Source of the DNA: Burkholderiales bacterium
Lineage (GTDB): Bacteria > Pseudomonadota > Gammaproteobacteria > Burkholderiales > SG8-39
Direction of reading: 5' to 3'
DNA: 64,000 nucleotides
Assembly (NCBI GenBank): GCA_041617635.1
Contig: JBFJOO010000005.1
Coordinates: 23,033 to 87,032, forward strand
Made by a program: the position numbers and the translations under genes. The notes beneath the pieces were generated by a model, which did not search any database, was not told the origin of the DNA, and worked only from the letters and a program-made list of their open reading frames with translations. Of this stretch, positions 28,839-63,938 are shown in pieces (position 1 is the stretch's first letter; each line of letters starts with the position of its first letter).

Positions 28839-28888
28839 CGCTCGCGCAGCACCGCAAACGCGCGGCGCGCAACAGCAAACCCCCGGGC

Positions 28889-30809: not shown

Positions 30810-31474
30810 GTGGCGAGCTCGCGTTGTTCGACTTGGACAACACGCTGCTCGCGGGCGACAGCGATTACGCGTGGGCGCAGTTCCTGATCGAGCAGGGGGT
30901 GCTGGAGCGCACGCAGTACGAGGCGCGCAACGACGAATTCTTCCGGCAGTACAAGGCCGGCACGCTGAACATACACGAGTTCCTGGCATTCCAGCTGGCA
31001 CCGCTCGCGGCGCACTCACGCGCGCAGCTCGACCTCTGGCACGGCCAGTTCATGGAGCAGCGAATCCGGCCGATGATCGGCGCCGCGGCGCGCGGCCTCG
31101 TGGAGCGCCATCGGGTCGCAGGCAATCTCTGCGCAATCGTCACCGCGACGAACTCGTTCGTCACCGGTCCGATCGCGCGCGAGTTCGGCGTCCCGCACCT
31201 GATCGCAACCGAGCCCGAGGAAGAGGGCGGCCGGTTCACGGGCGGCATAGCAGGAGTGCCCTGTTTCCAGGGCGGCAAGGTCACCCGCGTCGAAGCCTGG
31301 CTCGCGCACGCCGGCCACCGCTTCGAGTCGTTCGCGGCGACCTGGTTCTACAGCGACTCGGCGAACGACCTGCCGCTGCTCGAGCGCGTCAGCAACCCGG
31401 TGGCGGTCGACCCGGACGATCGGCTGCGTCAGGTGGCGAGCGCGCGGGGCTGGTCGATCCTGGAGATCCATTGA
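30806..31474 (+). CDS. HAD-IB family hydrolase
   Basis: LALFDLDNTLL, FYSDSANDLPLL. Confidence 0.92.
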   Translation: MSGELALFDLDNTLLAGDSDYAWAQFLIEQGVLERTQYEARNDEFFRQYKAGTLNIHEFLAFQLAPLAAHSRAQLDLWHGQFMEQRIRPMIGAAARGLVERHRVAGNLCAIVTATNSFVTGPIAREFGVPHLIATEPEEEGGRFTGGIAGVPCFQGGKVTRVEAWLAHAGHRFESFAATWFYSDSANDLPLLERVSNPVAVDPDDRLRQVASARGWSILEIH

Positions 31475-47945: not shown

Positions 47946-48142
47946 TGCCCGACACGGTGCAGAAGGAGCAGGTGATCGAGGTGGCCGAGCGGGATCTTCC
48001 GCTCCACTGCCCGACGCCGCGCACACCGGTCTGGTGCTATCACCCGCGCGTGTTCCTCGACGTCGCGCACGCCGGCGAAGCGCGCTGCCCGTACTGCGGC
48101 ACGCTGTATGTCTACAAGGGACCGCCGTCCAGCGGACACTAA
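47945..48142 (+). CDS. Zinc-finger (zf-CHCC) protein
   Basis: LPLHCP, HPRVFL, CPYCG. TGATG overlap with ilvE. Confidence 0.88.
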   Translation: MPDTVQKEQVIEVAERDLPLHCPTPRTPVWCYHPRVFLDVAHAGEARCPYCGTLYVYKGPPSSGH

Positions 48143-48207
48143 GAGTATGGATCGCCTCGACGGATGAATCGGCCCCGCGCGGTCTTGCAAGACAGCCTGT
48201 AACTGCC

Positions 48208-49251
48208 ATGCCGCGCATCGTCGTCGTCGCGCCCAACTGGATAGGCGACACGCTGCTCGCGCAGCCGCTGTTTGCCAGGCTTCACCAGAAGCTTCCCGGC
48301 CTCAAGCTGGACGCGCTTGCGCCCGCGTGGACTGCCCCGGTGCTTGCGCGCATGCCGCAGATCGACGAGGTGATCGAGTCGCCTTTCGCTCACGGCGAGC
48401 TCAAGCTGCTCGAGCGCTGGCGCCTCGGCCGGCAGATCCGGACGGTAGGCTACGATCAGGCGATCATCCTCCCGAACAGCTTCAAGTCGGCATTGGTGCC
48501 GTGGTTCGCCGACATCCCGTTGCGGGTCGGATTCGTCGGCGAATCGCGCTATGGCGTGCTCAATATCCGGCACAAGCTCGACGCGCCAGCGCTGCCCCTC
48601 ATGGCCGAGCGCTATGCGAAGCTTGCCGAACCGCCCGATGCGCCGCCGGTCCGGCCCTTGCGCGCCGCGCGCCTCGAGATCAACGAGGCAAACCTGGTGA
48701 TCACCTTGAGCCGGCTCGGGCTCTCTCGGTCGCGCCAGATCGCCGTCCTTTGCCCTGGCGCGGAGTACGGTCCCGCGAAGCGCTGGCCCGCGGGCCATTT
48801 TGCCGCGCTCGCCAAGGCCCTGGCCGCTCGCGGACTGGCCGTGTGGCTGATCGGCTCGGCCAAGGACAAGCCGGTCGCCGATGAGATCGCGGCAGGCTGC
48901 GACGATGCGGTGCTCAACCTGTGCGGGCGCACGGATCTCGGCGGGGCGATCGACTTGATGTCGCTCGCAAGCGTGGTGATCAGCAACGACTCGGGACTCA
49001 TGCACGTCGCATCGGCGCTCGGCCGTCCGCTCGTGGCGATCTACGGGTCCTCGAGCCCCGACCACACCCCGCCGCTCAGCCCCGGCGCGCGCATCGTCAA
49101 GCTCGACATCGAATGCAGCCCGTGCTTCGCGCGGGTCTGCCCCCTCGGTCACTTCCGGTGCATGAACGATCTCAAGCCGGAGCTGGTGCTCGCGGCCATC
49201 GATGCGCTCACCCGCAGCCCACGCCCGTTCAGTTCCGAGAACCGCCCGTGA
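48208..49251 (+). CDS. waaF: LPS heptosyltransferase II
   Basis: PNWIGD, PNSFKSA, CPGAEYGPAKRW, SNDSGLMH. Confidence 0.95.
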   Translation: MPRIVVVAPNWIGDTLLAQPLFARLHQKLPGLKLDALAPAWTAPVLARMPQIDEVIESPFAHGELKLLERWRLGRQIRTVGYDQAIILPNSFKSALVPWFADIPLRVGFVGESRYGVLNIRHKLDAPALPLMAERYAKLAEPPDAPPVRPLRAARLEINEANLVITLSRLGLSRSRQIAVLCPGAEYGPAKRWPAGHFAALAKALAARGLAVWLIGSAKDKPVADEIAAGCDDAVLNLCGRTDLGGAIDLMSLASVVISNDSGLMHVASALGRPLVAIYGSSSPDHTPPLSPGARIVKLDIECSPCFARVCPLGHFRCMNDLKPELVLAAIDALTRSPRPFSSENRP

Positions 49252-50439: not shown

Positions 50440-51879
50440 CTACCCCACGGTGGCGTCGGACGTCGCATCGATGCGGCCGTGGCCCACCGCCTCGGCCAGC
50501 AGCGTTTCCTGCAAGGACAGCCACTCGACGGGACCACCGGCCGAGCGCTGTCTGAGCAGCGCGGTGCTGACGCGGGTGCGGCCGGCTTCGCCCCCGTGTG
50601 ACTCCACGTAGGTGGCGAGGCAGAGACCACCCTCGTAGCGCCGTAGCGACACGTCGCGAATCTCCAGGCGGTAGCGCTTTGGCTTTTCACCAAACGCGCT
50701 GGCGAAGCTCCGCAACACGCCCGCCTTCCCATCGCGCCTGCCGTTTGGGTGGACGACCACGAAGTCCTCCGCGAGCGCCGCAGCCAGCCGCGCGAAGGCG
50801 ATATCGCGGTTCGGCACGTCGCCTTTGAGCCAGCGCTCAAGACCGCGGTGGAAATCGAGCACCTCCGCGAAAAAGGAATCGTCGGTCGCTCCGGCACGTT
50901 CCTCGCGGCCGACGCCGTGCGCGCTACCCGACCCGATGATCCTGTAATCGTCGGCGGGGCCAACCGGGACGATGGTCGGATCGATTTCCCCGATCGCGTC
51001 GTAGTAATGGCGCTTGACGTGGTCGAGCTTGACGGTCTCGGCGACGCCCGGAACGTCGTGAACTCTCCGCGCATACGCGGTGAGCGCCGGATAGTCGACC
51101 AGGCGACGCAGGTTGCATCGGAGCGCGCCATGATAAACGGCGTCAAAGCGACAGAGCGTCGCGAACAGGTGCCAGTCGCTCTCGGTCAGCTGGTCGCCCA
51201 GCAGATAGGGCTGCCGCGACAGCCGGCGCTCGAGTTCGTCGAGCGCCGCGAAGAGCGCGACCACCGCGCGCTCATACGCATGCTGGGTCGCGGCGAATCC
51301 CGCCCGGTAGACGCCCGCGCAGACGGTTGGGATGAGCCAGGCGTTCAGCGCGTCGATGTCGGCGCGCAGGGCCGGTGGATAGAAGTCCGCCGCGGCGTCG
51401 CCCCACTCGTCGAACGCCGAGTTGAGCATCCGGATGATTTCGCCCGACTCGTTGCTCACGATGGTTTCGGTCGCCCGATCCCACAATACCGGAACGCTGA
51501 CTCGCCCGGTGTAGTCGGGCTTCGCGGCGCGGTAGACCTCGTGCAGAAACCGCCGTCCGGCGACGTGATCGACGGTGCTCATGGCGCCGTCGTCGAAGCG
51601 CCACCCCTCCGGGGTCGCCCATCTCGGGTGCAGCACCGACATGGTGACGACGTTTTCGAGGCGCTTGAGTTGCCGATAGATGATGGTGCGGTGCGCCCAG
51701 GGGCAGGCATAGCTTACGTACAGGTGATAGCGACCGGGCTCGGCTCTGAATCCGGAACGCCCGTCCGCCGTCACCTGGCCGCGAAAGCCGCGCGCCCCGG
51801 CGAGTGCGCTGCGCACCGCCGCTGTCTCGTCCAGACGTCCATGCCAGACGCCGCCGATGAGTGCCCTGATCTCCCGCAT
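50440..51879 (-). CDS. Glutathionyl-hydroquinone reductase (YqjG-like) fused to DUF4440/NTF2-like domain
   Basis: RYHLYVSYACPWAHR, SVPVLWD, NESGEIIR, HVKRHYY, then about 140 aa ending WLSLQET. Confidence 0.85.
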   Translation of the reverse strand: MREIRALIGGVWHGRLDETAAVRSALAGARGFRGQVTADGRSGFRAEPGRYHLYVSYACPWAHRTIIYRQLKRLENVVTMSVLHPRWATPEGWRFDDGAMSTVDHVAGRRFLHEVYRAAKPDYTGRVSVPVLWDRATETIVSNESGEIIRMLNSAFDEWGDAAADFYPPALRADIDALNAWLIPTVCAGVYRAGFAATQHAYERAVVALFAALDELERRLSRQPYLLGDQLTESDWHLFATLCRFDAVYHGALRCNLRRLVDYPALTAYARRVHDVPGVAETVKLDHVKRHYYDAIGEIDPTIVPVGPADDYRIIGSGSAHGVGREERAGATDDSFFAEVLDFHRGLERWLKGDVPNRDIAFARLAAALAEDFVVVHPNGRRDGKAGVLRSFASAFGEKPKRYRLEIRDVSLRRYEGGLCLATYVESHGGEAGRTRVSTALLRQRSAGGPVEWLSLQETLLAEAVGHGRIDATSDATVG

Positions 51880-52004
51880 GCCGTTCAGCCCGTCAGCCCT
51901 TTGGCCCGCATGGCGTCGCGGCCGCTCGGTCGCGCCGCGATCCGGTACAGCTTCGTGCCCATCGTCGAATCCTCCTGGTCGGGTGACATGGCGCAACGCT
52001 ATAC

Positions 52005-52021
52005 TGTTCACGGCTGCAACA
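52005..52021. promoter_or_regulatory. Putative LysR binding site
   Basis: Inverted repeat TGTT-N9-AACA (contains T-N11-A) between divergent genes. Confidence 0.45.
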
Positions 52022-52051
52022 CCATTCGACAAAGGCGTAATCGGACTTTGC

Positions 52052-52954
52052 ATGGATGAACAGCAATCGAGCTGGGACGACCTGCGTACGGTGCTCGCCA
52101 TTGGCCGGACCGGCTCCCTCTCGGGCGCGGCGCGGACCCTGCGCGTCAGCCACCCGACGGTCTTCCGGCGCATCAACCAGATCGAGCGGCGCCTAGGGGT
52201 GCGCCTGTTCGAGCGGAAGCGCGCGGGCTACACGCTCACCGTTGCGGGCGAGGAATTGGTCGCCGTTGCCGAGCGTGTGGAAGAGGACTTGAGCGGCGTC
52301 GAGCGACGGCTCGCCGGGCAGGATCTGCGGCCGTCGGGAACGGTGCGGGTGACGACCACCGACACCTTGGTGGCTTTGCTGATCCCGATCTTCGCCGAGT
52401 TCCGCGCGGCCCACACGGGGATCGAGCTCGACCTCATCGTCTCGAGCGAGTTGCTCAATATCAGCCGGCGGGATGCCGACGTCGCGATCCGGCCCTCACG
52501 GCAGGTCCCGGAGAACCTGATCGGGCGGAAGGTGAGCGAGATCGGAATGGCCGTGTACGGCCATGAGCGCCTGTTCGCGAACCGCCGTCGCGACGCCGCC
52601 TTCGAGGACTACCCGTGGGTCGGGCCCGACGAGAGTCTGTCCTATCTACCGCTCGCCCGCTGGCTACGCGAGCGGAGGCTCCACGAGCGGCTCGTCTATC
52701 GCGCCAACACGCTGCTCGGCTGCCACGAAGCGGCGCGCGGCGGGATCGGGCTCGCGGTGCTGCCGTGCATGCTCGGCGATCCCGCGCCCGAGCTCGTGCG
52801 CGTCGGACCGTTGCTCGACGACCTGCAGGGCGAACTCTGGCTGCTCACGCATCGCGACCTGCGGGACGTCGCACGGATCCGCGTCTTCCTCGACTTCGTC
52901 ACGGAAGCGCTGAGAGCGCGCCGCGCGCTCTTCGCGGGACGGCGAAAAGCGTGA
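52052..52954 (+). CDS. LysR-family transcriptional regulator
   Basis: WDDLR, GSLSGAAR..VSHPTVFRRI..E..LG..LF.R, DADVAIR. Confidence 0.93.
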   Translation: MDEQQSSWDDLRTVLAIGRTGSLSGAARTLRVSHPTVFRRINQIERRLGVRLFERKRAGYTLTVAGEELVAVAERVEEDLSGVERRLAGQDLRPSGTVRVTTTDTLVALLIPIFAEFRAAHTGIELDLIVSSELLNISRRDADVAIRPSRQVPENLIGRKVSEIGMAVYGHERLFANRRRDAAFEDYPWVGPDESLSYLPLARWLRERRLHERLVYRANTLLGCHEAARGGIGLAVLPCMLGDPAPELVRVGPLLDDLQGELWLLTHRDLRDVARIRVFLDFVTEALRARRALFAGRRKA

Positions 52955-53173
52955 TCACCCTCGGCTGCGGCTTGCGTGCGTGGCGAGCGAATTCGGGCGT
53001 GCGTCCGATCGGGCCTGCAGAGCTTAGAATCCTGTTCGCCAACGCCGGGCATGCCGGGAACGACGGGTGCTCCGGCATGCCGTGCCGCATGTTCCCGCAC
53101 CCAATCCGGTCGACGGTACGATATCGGGGAGCGCTTCTGTCTTGACGAACTCCGCGGAAATCCGGTCTCGTTC

Positions 53174-54439
53174 GTGACCCGAAGCGACGTCGTCGTTCTC
53201 GGGGCGGGCATCGTCGGCATCTGCGTCGCGCTCCATCTCCAGAAGCGTGCGCGCTCGGTGACACTCGTGGACCGCCGTGGCGCGGCCGAGGAGACGTCCT
53301 TCGGCAATGCCGGACTGATCCAGCGCGAAGGCGTCTTTCCGTACGGATTCCCGCACGACTTCGGCGCGTTGCTCCGATACGGCCTGAATCGCACGATCGA
53401 TGCGCACTACCATGCTTCCGCGCTGCCGCGACTCGCGCCGTTCCTATGGCAGTACTGGCATCACTCACGGCCTGCAAGGCATGCCGAAGTGGCGCGCCGC
53501 TACGCAAAGCTGATCGAGCACTGCGTGTCCGAGCACGACGCGCTCGCGCGCGAAGCGGGCGCGCTGGATCTCATCAGACGCGTGGGCTGGATCAAGGTTT
53601 TTCGCACCGCGCGCGAGCGCGACCGGCGTTTCGCCGAGGCGGAGCGCTGGCATCGCGACTTCGGGCTCAACTACCGGACGTTCGACGCTCCGGCGCTGCA
53701 GGAACTCGAGCCGCACCTCGCGCCCGTGCTCGTGGGCGCGCTGCACTGGACCGATCCGACCAGCGTCGATGATCCGCAGGGGCTGGCGCATGCCTACCTG
53801 CGGCACTTCGAGCGCCTCGGCGGAAAGTTCGTCCAAGGCAATGCGGCGAACCTCGAGGCGCAGGGCGGCAACTGGCGGCTGCGCACGGCGCACGGCGTGC
53901 TCGAGTCCGGCGCGGCGGTCATCGCGCTCGGCCCGTGGGCCGATGGGCTGACGCGGGCGCTCGGCTACGATCTGCCGCTCGCTGTCAAGCGCGGCTACCA
54001 CATGCACTATCGGGTCGCCGGCGCGGCCCGACTCAATCACCCCACGCTGGATGCTGAACGCGGTTACTTCCTTGCTCCCATGCGTCGCGGAATCCGGCTT
54101 ACCACCGGGGCGGAATTCGCCCTGCGGGATGCCATTCGCACGCCGGTGCAGCTCGGCCGCGCGGAGCCGATCGCGCGCGACCTGTTCCCGCTTGCCGGGC
54201 GGCTCGACACCGAGGCGTGGATGGGCGCGCGTCCCTGCACGCCGGACATGCTGCCGGTGATCGGCAGGGCACCGCGCCATGCGAACCTCTGGTTTGCCTT
54301 CGGCCACGCACACCACGGGCTGACGCTCGGTCCGGTGACCGGGCGGCTGATCGCCGATATCGTCACGGGCGAAACGCCGTTCCTCGATCCCGCACCGTAT
54401 TCGGCGGAACGCTTCAGTGCCGGAACGCGCGCGCGCTGA
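53174..54439 (+). CDS. FAD-dependent oxidoreductase (D-amino acid dehydrogenase family)
   Basis: GAGIVG, ETSFGNAG, KRGYH, WMGARPCTPD, GHAHHGLTLG. GTG start inferred. Confidence 0.9.
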   Translation: MTRSDVVVLGAGIVGICVALHLQKRARSVTLVDRRGAAEETSFGNAGLIQREGVFPYGFPHDFGALLRYGLNRTIDAHYHASALPRLAPFLWQYWHHSRPARHAEVARRYAKLIEHCVSEHDALAREAGALDLIRRVGWIKVFRTARERDRRFAEAERWHRDFGLNYRTFDAPALQELEPHLAPVLVGALHWTDPTSVDDPQGLAHAYLRHFERLGGKFVQGNAANLEAQGGNWRLRTAHGVLESGAAVIALGPWADGLTRALGYDLPLAVKRGYHMHYRVAGAARLNHPTLDAERGYFLAPMRRGIRLTTGAEFALRDAIRTPVQLGRAEPIARDLFPLAGRLDTEAWMGARPCTPDMLPVIGRAPRHANLWFAFGHAHHGLTLGPVTGRLIADIVTGETPFLDPAPYSAERFSAGTRAR

Positions 54440-54457: not shown

Positions 54458-55702
54458 TCAGGACTGCCGTGCGGCTCCAGACTTTCTGGCCGGCCATTCC
54501 TTCCAGCGCCGGTGCACCCACCACCACTGCTCGGGGTGGCGCAGGATCATCCGCTCGAGGCTCGCATTGTAGAGCCGGGTGTTCGCCCGGATCTCCTCAC
54601 CCACGTCCTCGCGCGCGACCGGTTCGAGCGGCTCTTCAAAGCGCAGCACGTGCCGGCCATCCGCACCGCGCCAGCTCGACGCGGGCAGCACCGGAGCGCC
54701 GCTCGCCTGCGCGATGAGCGCGACGCTGCGGAACGTGCCCGCCGAATGGCCGAAGAATTCCACGCGCACGCCATCCTTCGGCCCGGCATGCTGGTCGAAC
54801 GGAAACACGACGATATCGCCCGCCGCGAGGCGCTCGAGAATGGCGTCAAGGGAGCCGCTCTTCGGCAACACGCCGAATCCCGCCTGGCGGAAGCGGCGGA
54901 TGATCACGGCGTCGAGCCAGCGCGGCTTGAACGGACGCCGCACGAAGTAGAACTTGCCCTTCGCCTGCGGAAAGCTCGCGATGCCGGCGGCGGTCGAGAC
55001 TTCCCAGTTGCCGAAATGGCCCGTCACGACGATCACGCCCTTGCCGCGCGCGTGCGCGGCGATGACGGTCTCGGGATTCTCGACCCACGCGCGCGCTGCG
55101 CGTTGCGCGGCGGTCAACCAGGGAAACACCAGGAACTCGCCCACGAGTCGCCAGAGATGAGCGTAGTGCGCCTGCGCCATGCGCCGGATCTCGTCCTCCG
55201 CGACGGTCGCGCCGAACACGCGGCGCAGATTGTCCAGCACGACCCGCCGGCGCAACGGGAAGCAGTGAAAGATGAGCTTGCCCGACAGCGGCACGGTGAT
55301 GTGCTCGGGCTCGGCGAGTGCGACCGCCGAGGCGCTGGTGCGATCGTGAGTGAGCGACAATGCGATCGACTTGATGCGATGTCTGCCCAGCACGGCTTCG
55401 GCGGCGGGGCTGCATATGGCCCGGGGCGCGCCATAGGCATCGCGGGCGACCGAGAAATCCGCCGCAGTGACTAGGTTCAGGGCGGTTTCGCGCGGAAAGA
55501 GCTTGAGACACGCTTCCTTTGCCGCGAATCGCGCGGCGAGGCTCGCCGCGCGGCCGGCGCCGTCGCCGCTCTCGCGCAGCTCGTCAGCCGAGTAAAGCTT
55601 GGCGAGATCGTCCGGCGGCGATTCGCGCAGCAGGCGCTCGATGCGCGCGATCTCGACCGTGTCGATGCCGCAGCGTGCGGACGACGCGGGGGCTTCGGGC
55701 AT
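54458..55702 (-). CDS. Fusion: holo-ACP synthase (AcpS) + LpxL/HtrB-family lipid A acyltransferase
   Basis: N-terminal GIDTVEIARI, ARFAAKEA, SLTH. C-terminal GHFGNWE, FDQH, HPEQWWWVHRRWK. One uninterrupted frame. Confidence 0.85.
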   Translation of the reverse strand: MPEAPASSARCGIDTVEIARIERLLRESPPDDLAKLYSADELRESGDGAGRAASLAARFAAKEACLKLFPRETALNLVTAADFSVARDAYGAPRAICSPAAEAVLGRHRIKSIALSLTHDRTSASAVALAEPEHITVPLSGKLIFHCFPLRRRVVLDNLRRVFGATVAEDEIRRMAQAHYAHLWRLVGEFLVFPWLTAAQRAARAWVENPETVIAAHARGKGVIVVTGHFGNWEVSTAAGIASFPQAKGKFYFVRRPFKPRWLDAVIIRRFRQAGFGVLPKSGSLDAILERLAAGDIVVFPFDQHAGPKDGVRVEFFGHSAGTFRSVALIAQASGAPVLPASSWRGADGRHVLRFEEPLEPVAREDVGEEIRANTRLYNASLERMILRHPEQWWWVHRRWKEWPARKSGAARQS

Positions 55703-55707
55703 CGGTG

Positions 55708-56994
55708 CTACGCAGCGCGAGCGGCACGGAACACGAGCGCCGCGTTGGTTCCGCCGAAGCCGCGCGACACGATGAGCGCGACGTCGCTTCGCGGCGTCTG
55801 CGCACGCGCGGACACCGGCATGCGCGCAAGCGCGGGATCGGGCTCGCGCAGCGTCGCGATGCCCGGCACGGATCGCGCGCGCAGCGCCTCGAGCGCGAGC
55901 ACGCAATCCAGCATGCCGGATGCGGCGATCAGGTGGCCGAACGCCCACTTGAATCCGGTGACCGGCGGCGGGTCGTCGCCGAAGACGCGGCGAATGGCCG
56001 CCGCCTCGGATGCATCCGAGTTGCGCGTGCCGTTCGCGTGCGCGACGATCATGCCGACGTCGGCCGCACGCAGTCCCGCATCGTCGAGCGCCGCCTGCAT
56101 CGCCGCGGCGGGACCTTCACCGTCGTCGCGTATCGGCAGCAGACCTTCGCCCTCGATCGTCGAGCCGCCGCCGAGATACTCGCCGAGCACGGGAACGCCG
56201 CGCGCCGCCGCGGAGGCCTCGGTCTCGAGCACGAGCCCGCCGGCACCCTCGCCGAAAAGGCTGCCGTCCCGTCCGGCATCGAACGGTCGCAGCACCTCCT
56301 TGGCGACCACGCCGATGGCGTCGTAATAGACGAGCGTCTGCGGCTCGATCGGCGCGTCGTGCGCGACCGTGACGGCGCGATCGGCCTCGGCCGCGCGCAG
56401 ACCGATTGCGGCCTCCATGATGGCGAGCATGCCGCTCACGCTGTGGTTCGTGATGCAGGCGTTCGCCCCCTTCAGGTTGTACTTGATACCGATGTGGCAC
56501 AGCACGTTGTTGGGCAGTGCCCGCAGCAGCCACATCGGATTCACGACCTCGGGGAGCTGGCGGCCGAATTCGACGAGGTCGCCTGCTGCGCTCGTCATGA
56601 GCGGAAAATAATCGTACTGGCCATCGTACGTTCCGCCGCCGGAGCCGACGTAGACGCCGGTCCGGTCGCTGTATTCCGCGGCAGCGGCCTCCTCCAGCCC
56701 ATCGCGCCACGCCGCAATGCCCGCTGCATCGATCGCGCGGCTTGCCGCGTACAGGCCGAACACATCGGAACGCCGGATGAACTTGAGGATCTTGCGGTCG
56801 CCCAGCAGCTTGGCCGGCTCGAGGCTCCGAACCTCGCCCGCGCGCTGCCGCGGCCAACCCGTCACGTCCCACAGCGCGATGGGGCCGATCGCGGATCGGC
56901 CGGACTGCAGAGTCTCCCAGATTTCCGCCGGACTCCTGCCCGCCGCGCAGATCGCGCCGCTGCCCGTGATGAGGATTCTCGGGTCCCCGGCCAT
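55708..56994 (-). CDS. Ketosynthase-like protein lacking catalytic Cys (chain-length-factor-like)
   Basis: FabF-fold motifs (RPFD, GEGAG, RGFGGTN), but TNHSVSG replaces TACASG. Confidence 0.85.
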   Translation of the reverse strand: MAGDPRILITGSGAICAAGRSPAEIWETLQSGRSAIGPIALWDVTGWPRQRAGEVRSLEPAKLLGDRKILKFIRRSDVFGLYAASRAIDAAGIAAWRDGLEEAAAAEYSDRTGVYVGSGGGTYDGQYDYFPLMTSAAGDLVEFGRQLPEVVNPMWLLRALPNNVLCHIGIKYNLKGANACITNHSVSGMLAIMEAAIGLRAAEADRAVTVAHDAPIEPQTLVYYDAIGVVAKEVLRPFDAGRDGSLFGEGAGGLVLETEASAAARGVPVLGEYLGGGSTIEGEGLLPIRDDGEGPAAAMQAALDDAGLRAADVGMIVAHANGTRNSDASEAAAIRRVFGDDPPPVTGFKWAFGHLIAASGMLDCVLALEALRARSVPGIATLREPDPALARMPVSARAQTPRSDVALIVSRGFGGTNAALVFRAARAA

Positions 56995-58292
56995 CACCCG
57001 AGCTCCGCGGGATTGCGCAGCGCGACGCAGCTGTTGGAACCGCCGAAACCGAGCGAGTTCGACAGCGCGATCCGGACGCGACGCTCGCGCGGGCGGTCGC
57101 GCACGATGTCCAGATGCTCGCAGTCCGCATCGGTCTCGCGCAGATTCGCGTTCACGGGCAGCACGCCGTGATGGATGGCGAGCGCGCACACCGCGGCCTC
57201 GACTGCGCCCGCCGCCGCGATGAGATGGCCCATCACGCTCTTCGTCGAGCTGACGGCCACACTGCCGACGTGCGCACCGAACACCACCTTCGCCGCCGCG
57301 CTCTCGCTGCGGTCGTTCATGGGCGTCGAGGTGCCGTGCGCGTTGAGATAGTCCACGTCGGTGGGCTCGGCCCCGGCATCGCCGAGCGCCTGGCGCATGG
57401 CCTGGATCGGGCCGTCGCCCGATGGGTGCGAATCGGTTATGCGATAGCTGGAAAGCGAGTTGCCGTCGCCGGCGAGCTCCGCATAAATGCGCGCGCCGCG
57501 TCGGCGCGCCGCCTCCCATTCCTCGAGGACCAGGAACCCCGCCCCTTCACCCAGCACGAATCCATTGCGGGTGGCGTCGAAGGGGCGGCTCGCGCGCTCG
57601 GGCGTTTCGTTGTCCGGGGAAACTGCGCCGAGCAGGCAAAAGCCGGCGAGGCCGATTGGCGAGACCATCGAGTCGAATCCGCCCGCGAGCACGCGATCGA
57701 CCGTGCCGCGGCGGATCAGCTTCATCGCGGTGCCGACCGCCTGCCCCCCCGATGCGCAGGCGGTGTGGACGGACGTCGCATAGCCGCGAATGCCGAAGCG
57801 CCGGGCGAGGAGCGAAACCCCGGCGGTGGACTGGCTCCGGCAGAACGCCATCGGGTCGTGCGCCGCTTCGTCGGTCAGCAGGCGCGCGACATCGATCTCG
57901 CCGCCCGCCGCGGAATGGGCATGCACCGCAGCGAGGGTCGCATAATCGACGCCCATCATGCCGGTGCCCACGGCCACGCCCCAGCGCGTGGCGGTCTCGG
58001 GCGCGGGGCGGATACCGGAATCGCGAATCGCCTCATCGGCCGCCGCCACCGCGAAGGCGTGCGAGCGATTCGCGAACTTCAGAAGCTTGCGATCGTCGAT
58101 CACCGCGCGCGGATCGAATCCCTTCACCTCCGCGGCGATGCGCGTCGAGAAACCGCTCGCATCGAAGAGCGTCACGGGCGCGACGCCGCTGCGACCCGCG
58201 AGCAACGCGTCCCACGTCGTCGCGACGTCGTTGCCGGCCGGCGTGACGAGCCCCAGGCCGGTCACCGCGACCCTGCGCCGCGGCACGCTCAT
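56994..58292 (-). CDS. Beta-ketoacyl-ACP synthase (FabF-like, active)
   Basis: HTACASG, NAHGTST, KSVMGH, GFGGSN. Confidence 0.92.
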   Translation of the reverse strand: MSVPRRRVAVTGLGLVTPAGNDVATTWDALLAGRSGVAPVTLFDASGFSTRIAAEVKGFDPRAVIDDRKLLKFANRSHAFAVAAADEAIRDSGIRPAPETATRWGVAVGTGMMGVDYATLAAVHAHSAAGGEIDVARLLTDEAAHDPMAFCRSQSTAGVSLLARRFGIRGYATSVHTACASGGQAVGTAMKLIRRGTVDRVLAGGFDSMVSPIGLAGFCLLGAVSPDNETPERASRPFDATRNGFVLGEGAGFLVLEEWEAARRRGARIYAELAGDGNSLSSYRITDSHPSGDGPIQAMRQALGDAGAEPTDVDYLNAHGTSTPMNDRSESAAAKVVFGAHVGSVAVSSTKSVMGHLIAAAGAVEAAVCALAIHHGVLPVNANLRETDADCEHLDIVRDRPRERRVRIALSNSLGFGGSNSCVALRNPAELG

Positions 58293-59131
58293 GCGTTTCT
58301 CCGCGCCACGATCTCCACCCGCGCGGTCGCGACGGGCTTGCCGTTCGCACGCGCCGAGAGCTTCGCCGCAAAAGCGTAGGCCTCCGCCGGCACGCGCTCC
58401 GCCCCGATCTCCAGCTCCTGCCCGGGGGAGATGAACGCGCGGATCTTCACGTCCAGGATCCGCGCGGCGGAGAGCTCGGTGCCGGCGGGAGGTGCCAAAG
58501 CCTCGCGCGCCAAGCCGATCGCGAGGCGGATCTGGCTGTCGAGCAGCAGCGTCGCTGGAAAGACCGGACGCCGCGGGAAGTGGTCCTGGAAGAAAGCGGC
58601 CGATGCGGGCACGCGCAGCAGCGCCTTGGCGCGCTCGCCGGGGGAGGACTCGACGGGCACGAGCTCGAATGCCGGCACGCCCGCGAACCGGTCGCTCGCC
58701 GCGCCCGCGCCACAGAGCAATTCATAGTCGCTGCGCAACGCGTCGGGCGCATCGAATTCTTCCGCAGGCAGCATCGGACCGAGACACTGATCGAGCACGA
58801 TCACGGGTTCTCCGCCCACGACCGCCCGTCCAGCGTAGGCCACGTCATCGTCGGTGCACGTCTCGAGATCGGCCTCGAGCGCGAGCGAATCGCCCGGCTT
58901 GACCGTGCGCAGAAATCGCGTTTCGCGCGCCAGCCCCGCCACCGGCCGCCGTCGGAACCCGAGATGCGCCATGCTCGCCCATGCGGCAAGCTGGCCCACC
59001 GACTCCGCAACGAGCGATGCGGGAAACTCGCGCACCCGGGTCGGAACGTGAAACGTTCCGCGCACGCGCACGCCGGGCACGACGTCGGTGATGCGATCGA
59101 CAAAGGAGAAAGCGCGGAAGCGCTCGCCCAT
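58289..59131 (-). CDS. Double hot-dog FabZ-like dehydratase
   Basis: FSFVDRI, ESVGQL, FFQDHFPRRPVFPATL. Confidence 0.82.
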   Translation of the reverse strand: MGERFRAFSFVDRITDVVPGVRVRGTFHVPTRVREFPASLVAESVGQLAAWASMAHLGFRRRPVAGLARETRFLRTVKPGDSLALEADLETCTDDDVAYAGRAVVGGEPVIVLDQCLGPMLPAEEFDAPDALRSDYELLCGAGAASDRFAGVPAFELVPVESSPGERAKALLRVPASAAFFQDHFPRRPVFPATLLLDSQIRLAIGLAREALAPPAGTELSAARILDVKIRAFISPGQELEIGAERVPAEAYAFAAKLSARANGKPVATARVEIVARRNA

Positions 59132-59161
59132 CGGTATTCCGAGCCCCGCGTGCGCGCCGGC

Positions 59162-59587
59162 TCAGCCGGCGTCCTTCTGCGCACGGACCACCAGCTTGCA
59201 GAACGTCTCGGCGGTGAACAGGCGCGGCACATCGGCCACCTTGAGTGGCGACTTGATGCGGTCGGCGGGCACCTCGGAAAGGAACGTGCGTACGCGCGCG
59301 ATGCCGGCGTCGGTCACCATGCCCTTCTGCTCGAACTCCGCCTCGGGCAGATCCCCGCGCGCATCCTCCACGATCTTGCCCCGGGGGATCTTCACTTTGA
59401 AGGCGCGCTCCAGGCGGAACACGAGGTCGAGAAAATCGATCGACTCCGCGTCGAGGCCATCGATCAGCGACACGTCCAGCTTGACGTCCTCGGCGTCGCA
59501 CCCCAGCGCATCGGCGATCGTCGCCGCGACGGTGGGGTAAACCGCCATGATCTCTTCCTTAGTGATTTCCGCCTGCGCCATTTCCAT
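59162..59587 (-). CDS. Extended acyl carrier protein
   Basis: LDAESIDFLDLVFRLERAFKVKIP, about 140 aa with a long insertion before the final helix. Confidence 0.85.
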   Translation of the reverse strand: MEMAQAEITKEEIMAVYPTVAATIADALGCDAEDVKLDVSLIDGLDAESIDFLDLVFRLERAFKVKIPRGKIVEDARGDLPEAEFEQKGMVTDAGIARVRTFLSEVPADRIKSPLKVADVPRLFTAETFCKLVVRAQKDAG

Positions 59588-60339
59588 CACTCCATCTTGA
59601 ATCCGCCGTCCACGTGCAGCACCTGGCCGGTAATGTACTCGGCAAAGCCGGACGCGAGGAACCACACTGCGTGGGCGATCTCCTCCGGTCTGCCGAACCG
59701 CCGGAGCAGGATGCGCGACTTCACCTCGTCGCCCGCCAGATCGCGGACGGCTTGCGACATTTCGGTCTCGATGACACCCGGCGCGACCGCGTTCACCGTG
59801 ATGCGGCGCGATGCGAGCTCCACGGCGAGCGCCCGCGTGAGCGCGTTGATCGCGCCCTTGCTCGCCGCGTAGTTCGTCTGGCCGCGGCCGCCCTTCTCGC
59901 CCGAGACCGAGCTCACGTTGATGATCTTGCCGGCGCGCCGGGAGATCATGTGCGGCACGACCGCGCGCGTCACGTTGAAGACGCCTCCCACGTTCGTGTC
60001 GAGCACCGCCTGCACATCCTCGGGCCCGAGCAAGGCGAGCAGATTATCACGGATCATTCCCGCATTGTTCACCAGGATATCGATGCGCTCGCACCGATCC
60101 GCCACACGCTCCACAGCCGCCGCGCACGTCTCCGCGTCGGTCACGTCGACCTGCTCCGCTGCCACGCGCCGACCGGCGGCGCGCGCAGCGGACACGACCT
60201 CTTCGGCCGCCGCCGCGTTGCCCTTGTAGAAAAACGTCACGTCCGCGCCGTCGGCCGCGAGCCGCTCGACGATCGCGCGGCCGATACCGCGGCTGCCGCC
60301 CGTGACGATCACCGTCTTGCCGGCTAGCCCCGAATCCAT
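59587..60339 (-). CDS. 3-oxoacyl-ACP reductase (FabG-like)
   Basis: TGGSRGIG, NNAG, GQTNYAASK, ITGQVLHVDGG. Confidence 0.92.
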   Translation of the reverse strand: MDSGLAGKTVIVTGGSRGIGRAIVERLAADGADVTFFYKGNAAAAEEVVSAARAAGRRVAAEQVDVTDAETCAAAVERVADRCERIDILVNNAGMIRDNLLALLGPEDVQAVLDTNVGGVFNVTRAVVPHMISRRAGKIINVSSVSGEKGGRGQTNYAASKGAINALTRALAVELASRRITVNAVAPGVIETEMSQAVRDLAGDEVKSRILLRRFGRPEEIAHAVWFLASGFAEYITGQVLHVDGGFKME

Positions 60340-60346
60340 CCGTCCC

Positions 60347-61102
60347 TCATCCCGAGATCGCAAAGCCGCCGTCGACGACAAGCGTGTGTCCGTTGATCAT
60401 GGCCGCCTCCGGGAGACACAAGAGATACACGGCGCCCGCAACGTCCTCGGGCGTAAGCGTGGGCCCGGCGGGCGTGCGCTGCGCGAACGATTCGAGCAGC
60501 TGCTCGCGATTCGGGAAGTAACCGAGCGCATCGGTGTCGACCACCCCTGCGCTGACCGTGTTCACGCGGATGCCGCGCGGACCCAGCTCCTGCGCCAGCG
60601 TGCGGACCATGGCTTCGAGCGCCGCTTTGGATGCCCCGACGAATCCGTACGCGGGCATCGCGCGCACGGCACCGAGGCTCGACATTGCGATGATGCGGCC
60701 GCCGGCGGGCATCATCGGGACCACGTGCTGCGCAAGCAGCGTGAGCGCCAGCGCGTTCGTCTCCATGCACCAGCGCCAGTGCTTGAGCGACATCTCCATG
60801 GCCGGCCGCAGCACGCCGCTCGCGGCGTTGCTCACCAGGATATCGACGCGCTCGAAGTGCTTGCGCAGTTCCGCGAAGAGCTCGTCGACGCTGTCCGGCA
60901 TGCCCACGCTCGCCTTGAGCGCGCACGCGCGCCGGCCCATCGCGCGCAGCTCCCTGCACAGCGCTTCCGCCTCGTCGTGGCTGTTGTAATAGTTCACCGC
61001 CACGTCGCATCCCGCGGTGGCGAGCTTGCGCGCGATCGCGCGGCCGATGCCGCGTGCCGCCCCCGTCACGAGCGCGACCTTGCCGTCCAAAGCGCCTGCC
61101 AT
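60347..61102 (-). CDS. FabL-like enoyl-ACP reductase (SDR)
   Basis: SNAASGVLRP and Y-x6-K (YGFVGASK), as in FabL. Confidence 0.82.
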   Translation of the reverse strand: MAGALDGKVALVTGAARGIGRAIARKLATAGCDVAVNYYNSHDEAEALCRELRAMGRRACALKASVGMPDSVDELFAELRKHFERVDILVSNAASGVLRPAMEMSLKHWRWCMETNALALTLLAQHVVPMMPAGGRIIAMSSLGAVRAMPAYGFVGASKAALEAMVRTLAQELGPRGIRVNTVSAGVVDTDALGYFPNREQLLESFAQRTPAGPTLTPEDVAGAVYLLCLPEAAMINGHTLVVDGGFAISG

Positions 61103-61160: not shown

Positions 61161-61550
61161 AGGTGAAGCTGGCCGATAAGCCGGGTTCTGTCCGGCGCCT
61201 CGCGGCGCTCCGGCAGTCATTCATCTAGGCCCTGGGTCGCCCCGGGGCTCGAGCAACCAACCCGCAGGCATCGGGCGAGCAGCCCTCGAACGCCTGCCTA
61301 TTCGGTCTTGCTCCGGGTGGGGTTTACCAGCCAGCCCTGTTACCAGGACCGCGGTGCGCTCTTACCGCACCATTTCACCCTTGCCTGATCTCCCCCGCTG
61401 ACGAATCAGCGGGCGAGCCATCGGCGGTGTGTTTTCTGTTGCACTTTCCGTCGCCTCGCGACGCCCGGCCGTTAGCCGGCACCCTGCTCTGTGGAGCCCG
61501 GACTTTCCTCTGAAAAGCAAACGCTTCCCAGCGACTGCCTAGCCAGCTTC
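61161..61550 (-). ncRNA. rnpB: RNase P RNA, class A
   Basis: Minus strand GAGGAAAGTCCGGGCTCC, GGGTGAAATGGTGCGGTAAGAGCGCACC, GACAGAACCCGGCTTATC. P1 is GAAGCTGGC/GCCAGCTTC. -10 TATCAT at 61558-61563. Confidence 0.97.
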
Positions 61551-62903: not shown

Positions 62904-63938
62904 TCAGAGGAGACGCCAGGCGACCCGCTCGCCGGCGCGCAGCGGCACGAGCGTGTCGCCGCCGTACGCTATGGACGGCGGTACGTCGAAGGGCCGCTTT
63001 TCCAGCGTCACGCGCTCGGTGTTGCGCGGCAGCCGGTAGAAATCCGGACCGTGAAAGCTCGCGAACGCCTCGAGCCGCCCGAGCGCGCCGGCTGCCTCGA
63101 ACGCCTCGGCGTAGAGCTCGATGGCGGCGTGGGCCGTGAAGCAGCCCGCGCAGCCGCATGCGCTTTCCTTCTCGGCGCGGGGATGGGGCGCGCTGTCGGT
63201 GCCGAGAAAGAACTTGCCGCTTCCGCCGGTGGCGGCGCGCAGGAGCGCCATGCGATGCTCCTCGCGCTTCAGCACCGGCAGGCAATACCAGTGCGGCCGC
63301 AGCCCGCCCTGGAAGATCGCGTTCCGGTTGTAGAGGAGGTGGTGCGCCGTAATGGTGGCCGCAATGTTCGGCCCGGCCGATTCCACGAACGCGACCGCAT
63401 CGCGCGTGGTGACGTGCTCGAGAACGATGCGCAACGCCGGGAAGCGCCGCACGATCTCCGCGAGCACCGTGTCGATGAATGCGCGCTCGCGATCGAAGAC
63501 GTCCACTTCGGGCGTCGTCACCTCGCCGTGCAGCAGCAGCGGCAGGCCTGCCCGCTGCATCTGCTCGAGCGCCGGGTAGGCATGCGCGATCCGGGTGACG
63601 CCGGATTCGGAGTTGGTCGTCGCGCCGGCCGGATAGTACTTCACGGCCTGCACGAACCCGCTCGTCCGTGCGCGCTCGATCTCGTCGGGTGTCGTGCTGT
63701 CCGTAAGGTAGAGCGTCATCAGCGGCTCGAATCGAGCGCCCGGCGGCAGCGCCCGGAGAATGCGATCGCGATAAGCGCCCGCCAGCGCCACGGTGGTGAC
63801 GGGCGGCTTGAGGTTCGGCATCACGATCGCCCGCGCGAACTGTCGCGCCGAGTACGGCAGCACGCTCGCCATCGCTGCTCCGTCGCGCAGATGCAGATGC
63901 CAATCGTCAGGGCGAGTCAGGGTGATGCGGTCGGTCAT
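62904..63938 (-). CDS. pyrC: Dihydroorotase
   Basis: [34 protein letters not shown]. Confidence 0.97.

What the first reader, a model, noticed from the sequence alone, without database searches (positions are those of the whole stretch)
54458..61102. Self-contained type II FAS operon predicted to put a very-long-chain or unusual acyl group on lipid A
Seen: seven tightly coupled genes (FabL-like ER, FabG, long ACP, double hot-dog DH, active KS, Cys-less KS, AcpS-acyltransferase) giving a full elongation cycle plus a transferase. Known: rhizobial acpXL-fabZXL-fabF2XL-fabF1XL-adhA2XL-lpxXL makes VLCFA lipid A, and from memory Legionella has a comparable cluster. Betaproteobacterial lipid A is generally short-chain. 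Inference: a distinct variant using FabL/FabG rather than AdhA2XL. The product and the acceptor are unproven.
Basis: partly seen in the sequence, partly recalled or inferred. Interest (0 to 1): 0.78.

Follow-up and report, generated by a model that had tools for sequence, protein, structure and literature searches.

The report
Legionella-type private fatty-acid operon
This is a real seven-gene operon that builds its own fatty acid on a private carrier protein and hands it to a lipid A-type acyltransferase; it matches a gene cluster found throughout Legionella, so it probably puts a very long acyl chain on the outer-membrane lipid A of an uncultured soil or water bacterium.

Summary
Seven tightly packed minus-strand genes (54458-61102) encode a FabL enoyl reductase, a FabG-type ketoreductase, a 141-aa ACP, a double hot-dog dehydratase, an active ketosynthase, a ketosynthase-like protein without the catalytic Cys, and an AcpS/LpxL-family acyltransferase fusion.

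The same order is kept in 64 of 66 sufficiently long related loci from Burkholderiales, Verrucomicrobiota, NC10 and Binatia.

- **Not what it groups with:** the KS pair does not group with housekeeping FabF/FabB, aryl-polyene KSs or rhizobial FabF1XL/FabF2XL. All four rhizobial equivalog models are missed.
- **What it groups with:** both KSs form well-supported clades with a KS pair that lies in 80 of 80 kept Legionellaceae loci, spot-checked in ten as part of a FabL-ACP-DH-KS-KSx-acyltransferase cluster.
- **Legionella link:** in two Legionella genomes that acyltransferase is the only LpxL-family gene. Legionella lipid A is known for C27-C30 acids.

Best reading (about 0.55): a dedicated very-long-chain fatty acid synthase feeding a lipid A late acyltransferase. 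It is a non-orthologous variant of the rhizobial AcpXL/LpxXL system. Chain length and acceptor remain inferred; no experiment or paper on this cluster was found.

The parts
60347..61102 (-). g1, FabL-type enoyl-ACP reductase (251 aa)
   Evidence: NF005975 FabL equivalog, 353.9 bits against cut-off 328; PF13561. 66-88% identical in related loci and 59-64% in Legionellaceae loci.
59587..60339 (-). g2, FabG-type 3-oxoacyl-ACP reductase (250 aa)
   Evidence: NF009466 FabG subfamily, 246.6 against 222; TIGR01830 273.4, below its 297.75 cut-off. The start at ATG 60339 was chosen. Distinct from housekeeping FabG on C29 (47% identity).
59162..59587 (-). g3, private acyl carrier protein with an insert of about 50 aa (141 aa)
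   Evidence: PF00550 covers residues 19-72 only. The Ser motif is kept in 69 of 69 homologues. The whole length is conserved, with 74% mean column identity over 18 sequences. AlphaFold pLDDT 85, with extra helices at 72-123; Foldseek matches only the ACP core.
58289..59131 (-). g4, double hot-dog 3-hydroxyacyl-ACP dehydratase (280 aa)
   Evidence: PF07977 and FabZ models hit residues 161-274 only. The model has pLDDT 93.1 and a double hot-dog fold. His184 is invariant (61/61 module, 73/73 Legionellaceae). Glu43 of the N-terminal repeat is kept in 60/61 and 73/73. The FabZ-Glu position of the C-terminal repeat varies.
56994..58292 (-). g5, active beta-ketoacyl-ACP synthase (432 aa)
   Evidence: NF005589, 423.5 against 387. 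Cys-His-Lys-His kept in 73 of 73 homologues. Forms its own clade, joined with the Legionellaceae KS at SH-aLRT 99.
55708..56994 (-). g6, ketosynthase-like partner (KSx) lacking the catalytic Cys (428 aa)
   Evidence: Ser at the FabF Cys position. Across 76 sequences (the window's g6 plus 75 homologues) that position is S50/C13/T8/G3/V2, while His, Lys and His are kept in 76/76. In Legionellaceae it is Ala in 80/80, with His/Lys/His in 80/80. Joint clade at SH-aLRT 100.
54458..55702 (-). g7, fusion of holo-ACP synthase (residues about 10-131) with an LpxL-family acyltransferase (about 141-405)
   Evidence: PF01648 34.5 against 25; PF03279 131.5 against 22.3. Asp14 is kept in 78 of the 78 sequences that cover it. 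Glu63 and Lys67 are kept in 80/80, His229 in 80/80 and Glu234 in 79/80. All 120 best database relatives have the same two-domain architecture.
61161..61550 (-). rnpB (RNase P RNA), directly upstream on the same strand; a neighbour, not a conserved part
   Evidence: RF00010, 315.6 bits. It lies 58 nt before g1 with no terminator-like site between them. Absent next to the module in 8 of 8 relatives scanned.

Best explanation
The operon is a dedicated type II fatty-acid synthase coupled to its own late acyltransferase. It is a seven-gene version of a cluster that lies in every Legionellaceae locus recovered here.

Proposed mechanism (steps 1-7 are inferred from domain families and conserved residues; none has been tested experimentally):
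1. The AcpS domain of g7 phosphopantetheinylates the private ACP g3.
2. Housekeeping FabD loads malonate onto g3.
3. g6, which has lost the acyl-accepting Cys but keeps the His-His-Lys decarboxylation residues, pairs with g5 like a chain-length or initiation factor. It primes synthesis by decarboxylating malonyl-ACP, which replaces FabH.
4. g5 elongates the chain.
5. g2, g4 and g1 reduce, dehydrate and reduce each cycle, giving a saturated chain.
6. The KS/KSx pair, the enlarged ACP and the single-site double hot-dog dehydratase carry the chain beyond the C16-C18 made by the housekeeping synthase. By analogy with Legionella this probably reaches C26-C30, possibly with an (omega-1) oxo or hydroxy group left over from an incompletely processed first cycle.
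7. The LpxL-family domain of g7 transfers the chain from g3 to lipid A as a secondary acyl group.

Shown here: gene content, conserved catalytic residues, orthology to the Legionellaceae cluster, and non-orthology to the rhizobial, aryl-polyene and housekeeping genes.
For: 1. Complete KS/KR/DH/ER set plus ACP, PPTase and PF03279 transferase in one operon. Catalytic residues are conserved in 73/73, 76/76 and 78-80/80 homologues.
2. A full housekeeping fabH-fabD-fabG-acpP-fabF set and a stand-alone AcpS lie elsewhere, on C29. The operon is therefore an extra system.
3. g5 and g6 are each monophyletic with the Legionellaceae KS and KSx (SH-aLRT 99 and 100). FabF/FabB, ApeO/ApeR and FabF1XL/FabF2XL are excluded.
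4. The KSx gene was recovered in 80 of 80 kept Legionellaceae loci, about 40 of them carrying species or strain names. Ten loci, six of them named isolates, were printed: all ten have ACP, DH, KS, KSx and acyltransferase, and nine have the FabL gene. One locus was confirmed with NCBIfam models.
5. [quoted passage not shown]
6. L. longbeachae and Legionella sp. D16C41 have no FabF2XL equivalog (best 88.6 bits against 320).
7. In those two genomes the module's acyltransferase is the only PF03279 match above cut-off, and no DUF374/LpxJ passes.
8. A gene scoring 452 bits on the LpxO model (cut-off 500), against 116 on OlsC, follows g7 directly in 22 of 72 loci with enough downstream sequence.
9. 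The g7 acyltransferase domain, the Legionellaceae enzyme and 13 unannotated representatives form one clade at SH-aLRT 99.
Against: - There is no experimental link for this operon. I found no paper linking the Legionella cluster to its long acids either, so the chain of inference has two untested steps.
- The window's genome already has two canonical LpxL genes beside metK on C30. g7 is therefore not needed for ordinary lipid A.
- g7 aligns to PF03279 only from profile position 42. The AcpS domain sits where LpxL enzymes have their N-terminal segment.
- With wider sampling the acyltransferase is not sister to LpxXL. LpxXL groups with LpxL/M/P instead.
- The LpxO-like neighbour is missing from the window and was not found by tblastn in its genome, which is 91% complete. 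It occurs in only 22 of 72 loci. LpxO relatives also hydroxylate ornithine lipids (recalled, not checked).
- In 39 and 40 of 56 loci the module is preceded by a condensation-type acyltransferase and by lipoprotein alpha/beta-hydrolases. These have no role in known lipid A pathways.
- Chain length cannot be read from the sequences.
- Published MIDI fatty-acid tables for Zwartia list nothing above C18 (PMC10535154, passages and Table 4 text). I did not check whether those strains carry the module; that MIDI FAME profiles do not cover very long chains is recalled, not checked.
Confidence: 0.55

Rival explanations
1. Same private synthase, different acceptor. The LpxL-family domain acylates a lysophospholipid, an ornithine or other aminolipid, or a glycolipid. 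Where they are present, the upstream condensation-type acyltransferase and lipoprotein hydrolases then finish an unknown envelope lipid.
For: - PF03279 also holds non-lipid-A enzymes. g7's best solved relative by sequence is the mycobacterial PIM acyltransferase PatA (E 4e-10), ahead of LpxM (E 5e-8).
- g7 lacks the N-terminal part of the family profile.
- The genome already has two LpxL genes.
- The accessory condensation-type acyltransferase occurs in 39/56 loci and the hydrolases in 40/56, in both Pseudomonadota and Verrucomicrobiota.
Against: - In two Legionella genomes the orthologous-clade enzyme is the only LpxL-family gene, yet Legionella lipid A has ester-linked secondary chains (PMC7867332 passages).
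- The LpxO-like neighbour scores 452 bits on LpxO against 116 on OlsC.
- Every phylum label that is not an evident MAG mislabel is a diderm group.
- The accessory genes are absent from the window and were not found by tblastn in its genome, so they are not needed for the core function.
Confidence: 0.2
2. The acceptor is lipid A, but the product is not very long. The cassette would supply an ordinary or medium-length saturated chain, or some other unusual one, for example under conditions where the housekeeping synthase makes mostly unsaturated or cyclopropane acids.
For: - Nothing in the sequences fixes chain length.
- LpxO in characterised bacteria acts on C12-C14 secondary chains (recalled).
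- g5 still scores as a FabF-subfamily enzyme.
Against: - A whole private synthase is costly merely to duplicate chains that the C29 system already makes.
- Orthology to the Legionellaceae cluster, combined with the C27-C30 acids reported across that genus (PMC7867332).
- The enlarged ACP and single-site double hot-dog dehydratase are the kind of change seen in long-chain systems such as mycobacterial AcpM and HadAB (recalled analogy).
Confidence: 0.15
3. It is an aryl-polyene, flexirubin-type or other polyene-lipid pigment cluster.
For: - It shares a KS plus a Cys-less partner, an ACP, a hot-dog dehydratase, a FabG-type reductase and an LpxL-family transferase.
- g2 scores 248.7 bits on the flexirubin FlxB model, below the 340 cut-off.
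Against: - A FabL enoyl reductase is present, and polyenes need none.
- g5 and g6 do not group with ApeO, ApeR or ApeC of E. coli CFT073. ApeD is the most distant acyltransferase in both trees.
- No LolA, MMPL, adenylase, lyase or methyltransferase was seen among the ten ORFs scanned beside the operon.
- The genome has a separate ApeO-like KS beside a LolA-like gene on C22.
Confidence: 0.03
4. It is a redundant or horizontally acquired copy of the housekeeping fatty-acid synthase with no special product.
For: g5, g2 and g1 all carry generic Fab-family signatures.
Against: - g6 lacks the nucleophile.
- The ACP has a conserved insert.
- The transferase and PPTase are fused into the operon.
- Order is kept in 64/66 loci across phyla.
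- Distribution is patchy: 10 of 400 other genomes of the order and 0 of 10 of the window's own family.
Confidence: 0.02

Closest known systems
Rhizobial/Brucella acpXL-fabZXL-fabF2XL-fabF1XL-adhA2XL-lpxXL cluster (C26-C34 hydroxy acids on lipid A; PMC11901934 and PMC5613085, passages read)
   Same: Same logic: a private ACP, an active KS plus a catalytically impaired KS-like partner, a hot-dog dehydratase, a reductase and an LpxL-family transferase in one locus, additional to the housekeeping synthase.
   Different: - Not orthologous. The window's scores against cut-offs are AcpXL model 35.8/83, FabF2XL 41.9/320, FabF1XL 323/629 and LpxXL 99.7/273. A real rhizobial-type locus passes all four.
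- The clades are separate in all trees.
- FabF2XL has Glu at the Cys position and has lost His and Lys, whereas g6 keeps His-Lys-His.
- Here the reductases are SDR FabL plus FabG rather than an MDR dehydrogenase, the dehydratase is a fused double hot-dog, the ACP carries an insert, and AcpS is fused to the transferase.
Legionellaceae cluster SDR-FabL-ACP-DH-KS-KSx-acyltransferase. I found no paper on it: searches gave nothing, and my recollection of an older paper on paralogous lipid A genes was not checked.
   Same: - Orthologous genes in the same order: FabL 59-64%, ACP with the same long form 50-59%, DH 25-34%, KS 53-58%, KSx 41-45%, acyltransferase domain 36-46% identical.
- Joint clades for KS, KSx and acyltransferase.
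- Same His184/Glu43 pattern in the dehydratase.
   Different: - In the Legionellaceae loci examined the transferase has no AcpS domain (match to g7 residues 128-141 onwards only).
- The FabG gene between FabL and the ACP is missing. In the one locus scanned (L237), another SDR precedes FabL.
- KSx has Ala (80/80) rather than Ser at the Cys position.
- There the transferase is the only LpxL-family gene. The window's genome has two more.
Aryl-polyene (ape) cluster of E. coli CFT073
   Same: A type II system with a KS, a chain-length-factor-like partner, ACPs, a FabG2-type reductase, hot-dog dehydratases and an LPLAT/LpxL-family transferase.
   Different: The ape cluster has no enoyl reductase, a truncated 240-aa CLF, and LolA/MMPL/adenylase/methyltransferase genes. 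Its KSs and transferase fall outside the module clades.
Type II polyketide KS/CLF pairs and mycobacterial FAS-II (AcpM, KasA/B, HadAB/BC); compared from memory only
   Same: A KS paired with a non-condensing partner. In mycobacteria, an ACP with an extension and a hot-dog dehydratase with one catalytic and one chain-accommodating half serve very long chains. AcpM appears among weak ACP hits.
   Different: CLFs carry Gln at the Cys position, whereas here it is Ser and variable. No specific sequence relationship to KasA or HadAB was found (NF005916 scores 217.7 against 560).

Membership tests
Rhizobial AcpXL/LpxXL VLCFA cluster | AcpXL equivalog (NF005079, cut-off 83 bits) | tested here: not met
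   g3 scores 35.8. The control locus L096 scores 176.7.
Rhizobial AcpXL/LpxXL VLCFA cluster | FabF1XL (NF005076, cut-off 629) and FabF2XL (NF005084, cut-off 320) equivalogs | tested here: not met
   g5 scores 323.2 and g6 41.9. L096 scores 757.6 and 606.2. The clades are separate.
Rhizobial AcpXL/LpxXL VLCFA cluster | LpxXL equivalog (NF005120, cut-off 273) | tested here: not met
   g7 scores 99.7 and L096 scores 477.2. In the wider tree LpxXL groups with LpxL/M/P, not with g7.
Rhizobial AcpXL/LpxXL VLCFA cluster | A C26-C34 (omega-1)-hydroxy acid on lipid A that depends on the cluster | not testable with these tools
   Needs lipid A mass spectrometry of a carrier and of a mutant.
Legionellaceae-type module (unnamed) | Active KS and Cys-less KSx with His/Lys/His kept, each orthologous | tested here: met
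   Joint clades at SH-aLRT 99 and 100. The KSx pattern is kept in 76/76 sequences (window included) and 80/80 Legionellaceae.
Legionellaceae-type module (unnamed) | FabL equivalog, long ACP, double hot-dog DH and LpxL-family transferase in the same order | tested here: met
   FabL passes its cut-off in both (353.9 in the window, 373.7 in L237). The transferase clade has SH-aLRT 99.
Legionellaceae-type module (unnamed) | Stand-alone transferase, and no FabG between FabL and the ACP | tested here: not met
   The window has an AcpS fusion and a FabG gene. The Legionellaceae loci examined have neither. The window's operon is therefore a variant architecture.
LpxL/LpxM/LpxP late acyltransferases (PF03279) | Pfam model above cut-off and the H-x4-E/D catalytic motif | tested here: met
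   131.5 bits against 22.3. His229 is kept in 80/80 and Glu234 in 79/80.
LpxL/LpxM/LpxP late acyltransferases (PF03279) | Kdo2-lipid IVA or lipid A as acceptor | not testable with these tools
   Indirect evidence only: it is the sole PF03279 gene in two Legionella genomes, and an LpxO-like neighbour occurs in 22/72 loci.
AcpS-type phosphopantetheinyl transferase (PF01648) | Model above cut-off and conserved Asp/Glu/Lys | tested here: met
   34.5 bits against 25; TIGR00556 47.7 against 45.35. Asp14 78/78, Glu63 80/80, Lys67 80/80. The roles of these residues are recalled from AcpS structures.
Aryl-polyene (ape) clusters | No enoyl reductase; ApeO/ApeC-type KS/CLF; LolA/MMPL export genes | tested here: not met
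   FabL is present. The KSs fall outside the Ape rows. No such neighbours were seen among the ten flanking ORFs scanned.
Type II PKS KS/CLF | Gln at the Cys position of the CLF (recalled definition) | tested here: not met
   Ser in the window; S/C/T/G/V among the 76 sequences, never Gln.

The most novel reading that the evidence does not exclude
This module, not the rhizobial acpXL type, is the so-far unassigned genetic basis of the signature long acids of Legionella lipid A. Its seven-gene form shows that very-long-chain lipid A is widespread in uncultured soil and freshwater Burkholderiales, Verrucomicrobiota, NC10 and Binatia.

The Cys-less but His-His-Lys-intact KSx primes synthesis on the private ACP. 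The odd chemistry then follows from the first cycle (my inference from carbon counts only):
- An unreduced acetoacetyl starter gives (omega-1)-oxo even chains, C4 + 12 or 13 C2 = C28 or C30.
- A reduced but undehydrated starter gives (omega-1)-hydroxy chains.
- A non-decarboxylated malonyl starter gives the odd alpha,omega-dioic acids, C3 + 12 or 13 C2 = C27 or C29.
Probability: 0.35. Interest if true: 0.8.

Novelty: new variant of a known kind. Interest (0 to 1): 0.62.

Why it matters
Very long acyl chains that span the outer membrane are known from rhizobia, Brucella and Legionella. They shape membrane stability and recognition by innate immunity.

Only the rhizobial genes have been described in the papers I could search. 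If this reading holds, three things follow:
- A second, independently evolved gene set does the same job.
- It explains chemistry in Legionella that was reported from 1992 onwards (reference list of PMC7867332).
- It predicts the trait in abundant uncultured soil and water bacteria, where at least 2777 clusters of the fused protein at 90% identity were found.

It also offers a compact cassette, with its own PPTase, for studying how a KS/KSx pair, an enlarged ACP and a single-site double hot-dog dehydratase set chain length.

Tried and rejected
- **Our earlier findings**: nothing by place or by sequence. (by words): only analogues in other genomes.
- **Literature searches** for the fusion, the cluster or Legionella VLCFA genes: no paper on this cluster. 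Supplements were closed, and subscription journals are not covered.
- **First acyltransferase tree** suggested a sister relation to LpxXL. I rejected this after wider sampling.
- **Flank synteny by tblastx** gave only GC-rich noise and was dropped.
- **Flanks of seven relatives without accessory genes**: unrelated housekeeping genes (Dus, aldolases, luciferase-like, sulfatase, hexapeptide transferase, aldehyde dehydrogenase, TctC, NMT1-like, SpoU). There is no conserved neighbourhood.
- **rnpB adjacency** is not conserved.
- **ACP fold search**: no match for the insert (0 hits at E <= 0.001).
- **Motif regexes** were too strict and were replaced by alignment columns.
- **Chemotaxonomy of Zwartia** (PMC10535154): uninformative for chains above C20.
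- **Not run:** Complex prediction for g5/g6, because a textbook-type pair would pass by likeness and would not change my odds. RNA or read evidence was not sought.
- **Rows dropped:**
  - ApeC (240 aa, very long branch) was left out of the second KS tree.
  - Only 15 of 80 module loci and 8 of 80 Legionellaceae loci entered the trees.
  - Only 60 of the 150 representatives were scanned, and only 27 of 150 were used.

Full report
**Observation**

ORF listing and start-codon inspection give seven minus-strand genes between 54458 and 61102. They are separated by 7, -1, 30, -4, -1 and 5 nt.

Pfam and NCBIfam identify them as follows:
- **g1:** a FabL enoyl-ACP reductase (equivalog NF005975, 353.9 bits against 328).
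- **g2:** a FabG-subfamily reductase (NF009466, 246.6 against 222).
- **g3:** a 141-aa ACP whose PP-binding match covers residues 19-72 only.
- **g4:** a 280-aa protein whose C-terminal half matches FabZ/FabA.
- **g5:** a FabF-subfamily ketosynthase (NF005589, 423.5 against 387).
- **g6:** a second ketosynthase-fold protein.
- **g7:** a fusion of an AcpS domain (PF01648) with a lipid A acyltransferase domain (PF03279, profile positions 42-294).

The genome holds a complete housekeeping fabH-fabD-fabG-acpP-fabF cluster and a separate AcpS on contig C29. The operon is therefore an extra system. It lacks FabD and FabH.

An RNase P RNA gene lies 58 nt upstream on the same strand.

**Anatomy**

- **g5 and g6.** Aligned to E. 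coli FabF, g5 keeps Cys-His-Lys-His and g6 has Ser at the Cys position. Among related loci g5 keeps all four residues in 73 of 73. For g6, counting the window's own sequence with 75 homologues, the Cys position is S50/C13/T8/G3/V2, while His, Lys and His are kept in 76 of 76. A nucleophile that drifts beside an invariant decarboxylation set argues for a non-condensing partner that still binds and decarboxylates malonyl-ACP. That function is inferred.
- **g4.** It folds with high confidence (pLDDT 93.1, pTM 0.91) into two hot-dog repeats, and its best Foldseek hits are double hot-dog proteins. His184 of the second repeat and Glu43 of the first are conserved (61/61 and 60/61). The FabZ-Glu position of the second repeat varies. 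This suggests one composite active site.
- **g3.** It folds (pLDDT 85) as an ACP core with extra helices between residues 72 and 123. The whole length is conserved (74% mean column identity over 18 sequences). Foldseek recognises only the core.
- **g7.** Both domains keep their catalytic residues: Asp14 in 78/78, Glu63 and Lys67 in 80/80, His229 in 80/80 and Glu234 in 79/80.

**Conservation and spread**

A scan of species genomes with g7 found at least 574 relatives. The best 80 are MAGs or isolates labelled Burkholderiales (Casimicrobiaceae, Alcaligenaceae including Jezberella and Zwartia), Verrucomicrobiota, NC10 and Binatia.

All seven genes are in the same order and strand in 64 of the 66 loci with enough upstream sequence. 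The exceptions are L035, with a weak g4, and L080, where g1-g3 were not found.

Flanks differ. rnpB is not adjacent in 8 of 8 relatives, and the neighbours of seven loci are unrelated genes.

In a sample of the window's order the fusion occurs in 10 of 400 other genomes and in 0 of 10 of its own family.

The protein database holds at least 2777 clusters at E <= 1e-40. The best 120 all have the two-domain architecture and carry only automatic names.

The picture is of a portable, patchily distributed cassette.

**Comparison with known systems**

- **Rhizobial cluster.** A rhizobial-type locus fetched through the FabF1XL model passes the AcpXL, FabF2XL, FabF1XL and LpxXL equivalogs, and it carries an MDR-type dehydrogenase. 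The window's proteins miss all four cut-offs. FabF2XL has Glu at the Cys position and has lost His and Lys, unlike g6.
- **KS trees.** In the trees (quick IQ-TREE, SH-aLRT), g5 and g6 each form their own clade. Both lie apart from E. coli FabF/FabB, the genome's own FabF, ApeO/ApeR/ApeC of E. coli CFT073 and FabF1XL/FabF2XL.
- **Acyltransferase trees.** A first tree placed g7 next to LpxXL (SH-aLRT 95). After adding Legionellaceae enzymes and 27 representatives, LpxXL grouped with LpxL/M/P instead, and g7 fell in a separate clade (SH-aLRT 99).

**The Legionella link**

A library-wide search with the acyltransferase domain found unfused relatives (257 at E <= 1e-30). The relatives of one of them led to Legionellaceae loci that carry homologues of g1 and g3-g7 in the same order.

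Searching with the KSx of one such locus returned 80 Legionellaceae loci, about 40 of them carrying species or strain names.

Ten loci were printed. All ten have ACP, DH, KS, KSx and acyltransferase, and nine have the FabL gene. Identities to the window are 61-64% for FabL, 50-59% for the long ACP, 28-34% for the DH, 56-58% for KS, 41-45% for KSx and 36-42% for the unfused acyltransferase. One locus was confirmed with NCBIfam; an extra SDR precedes FabL there.

The window's KS and KSx are monophyletic with the Legionellaceae ones (SH-aLRT 99 and 100). Legionellaceae KSx has Ala at the Cys position in 80/80 and keeps His/Lys/His in 80/80.

According to a review (PMC7867332, passages read):
- 27-oxo-octacosanoic acid occurs in all Legionella species studied.

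Two Legionella genomes lack a FabF2XL equivalog. In both, the module's acyltransferase is the only PF03279 match above cut-off, and no DUF374 match passes. For that clade, a lipid A late acyltransferase fed by a private synthase is the simplest reading.

**Other context**

In 22 of 72 loci a gene very close to the LpxO model follows g7 directly (452 bits against a cut-off of 500; OlsC model 116).

In 39 and 40 of 56 loci a condensation-type acyltransferase and lipoprotein alpha/beta-hydrolases precede the module, in two phyla.

None of these was found in the window or, by tblastn, in its genome. They are optional. The second set is unexplained and is the main reason to keep another acceptor or a further product in play.

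**Mechanism and confidence**

I read the operon as a dedicated synthase that makes a saturated, probably very long chain on g3 and transfers it to lipid A through g7. g6 serves as a priming and length-setting partner, and FabD is borrowed. My confidence is about 0.55.

- **Shown:** the parts, their conserved residues and their orthology.
- **Inferred:** every catalytic step, the chain length and the acceptor.
- **Points against:** the two canonical LpxL genes on C30, the missing N-terminal part of the family profile in g7, and the absence of any experiment.

**Literature**

Searches for the fusion, the cluster and Legionella VLCFA genes found no description. From PMC11901934, PMC5613085, PMC7867332 and PMC10535154 I saw search listings and passages only. 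Supplements were closed, and subscription journals are not covered, so an older description cannot be excluded.

**Verdict**

A real, conserved, functionally unnamed cassette. It is a new variant of the known idea of a private very-long-chain synthase for lipid A, and it is directly testable in a cultured non-pathogen.

Noticed in passing
window 61161-61550 (-): The RNase P RNA gene (RF00010, 315.6 bits) ends 58 nt before the first gene of the operon, on the same strand, with no terminator-like site between them. Read-through from rnpB is possible. The adjacency is not seen in 8 of 8 relatives scanned.
   Followed up: partly
loci L001, L004, L006, L019, L020, L024, L069 and others, about 3.5 kb upstream of the module: In 39 and 40 of 56 loci the module is preceded on the same strand by a condensation/PapA-like acyltransferase of about 450 aa (HxxxDG-type motif). 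It is flanked by one or two paralogous lipoproteins of about 350 aa with a lipobox and a GHSQGG nucleophile elbow. No Pfam or NCBIfam hit was found for these lipoproteins. The set occurs in both Pseudomonadota and Verrucomicrobiota, is absent from the window, and was not found by tblastn in its genome.
   Followed up: partly
loci L006, L007, L009, L013, L015, L020, L022 and others, directly after g7: An LpxO-like dioxygenase (NF033391, 452 bits against cut-off 500) follows the fusion gene in 22 of 72 loci, all labelled Pseudomonadota. It is often followed by a TctC-family receptor gene.
   Followed up: partly
own genome, contig C22 about 26011-31216 (outside the window; locus L102): A second KS groups with ApeO of E. 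coli CFT073 (SH-aLRT 99). It lies beside a 773-aa protein with no Pfam hit and a LolA_3 gene, so the genome probably also has an aryl-polyene-type cluster.
   Followed up: partly
own genome, contig C30 3795-8425 (outside the window; locus L101): A stand-alone FabF-like KS sits between the S-adenosylhomocysteine hydrolase and metK genes, next to two tandem canonical LpxL genes.
   Followed up: no
L007 12541-17181: Two group II intron copies (RF02012 twice, RF00029 twice) lie just downstream of the module in one betaproteobacterial MAG.
   Followed up: no
loci L026, L051, L053, L058, L061, L065, L066: Record titles such as Akkermansia muciniphila, Bordetella parapertussis, Bifidobacterium, Cyanobium and Margulisiibacteriota sit on contigs whose module genes cluster with Verrucomicrobiota or Burkholderiales MAGs. 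These are likely mislabelled or mis-binned MAGs.
   Followed up: no
window 48034-49251 (+), 51857-52954 (+), 52976-54439 (+), 62904-63938 (-): Neighbours of the operon in the window: an LPS heptosyltransferase (PF01075) about 5 kb away, a LysR regulator, a convergent FAD-dependent DAO-type oxidoreductase ending 18 nt from g7, and an amidohydrolase beyond rnpB.
   Followed up: no
representatives P0022, P0027, P0042, P0052, P0096, P0110: Relatives of the acyltransferase domain, about 600 aa long, have two matched stretches. They are either tandem acyltransferase domains or other fusions.
   Followed up: no
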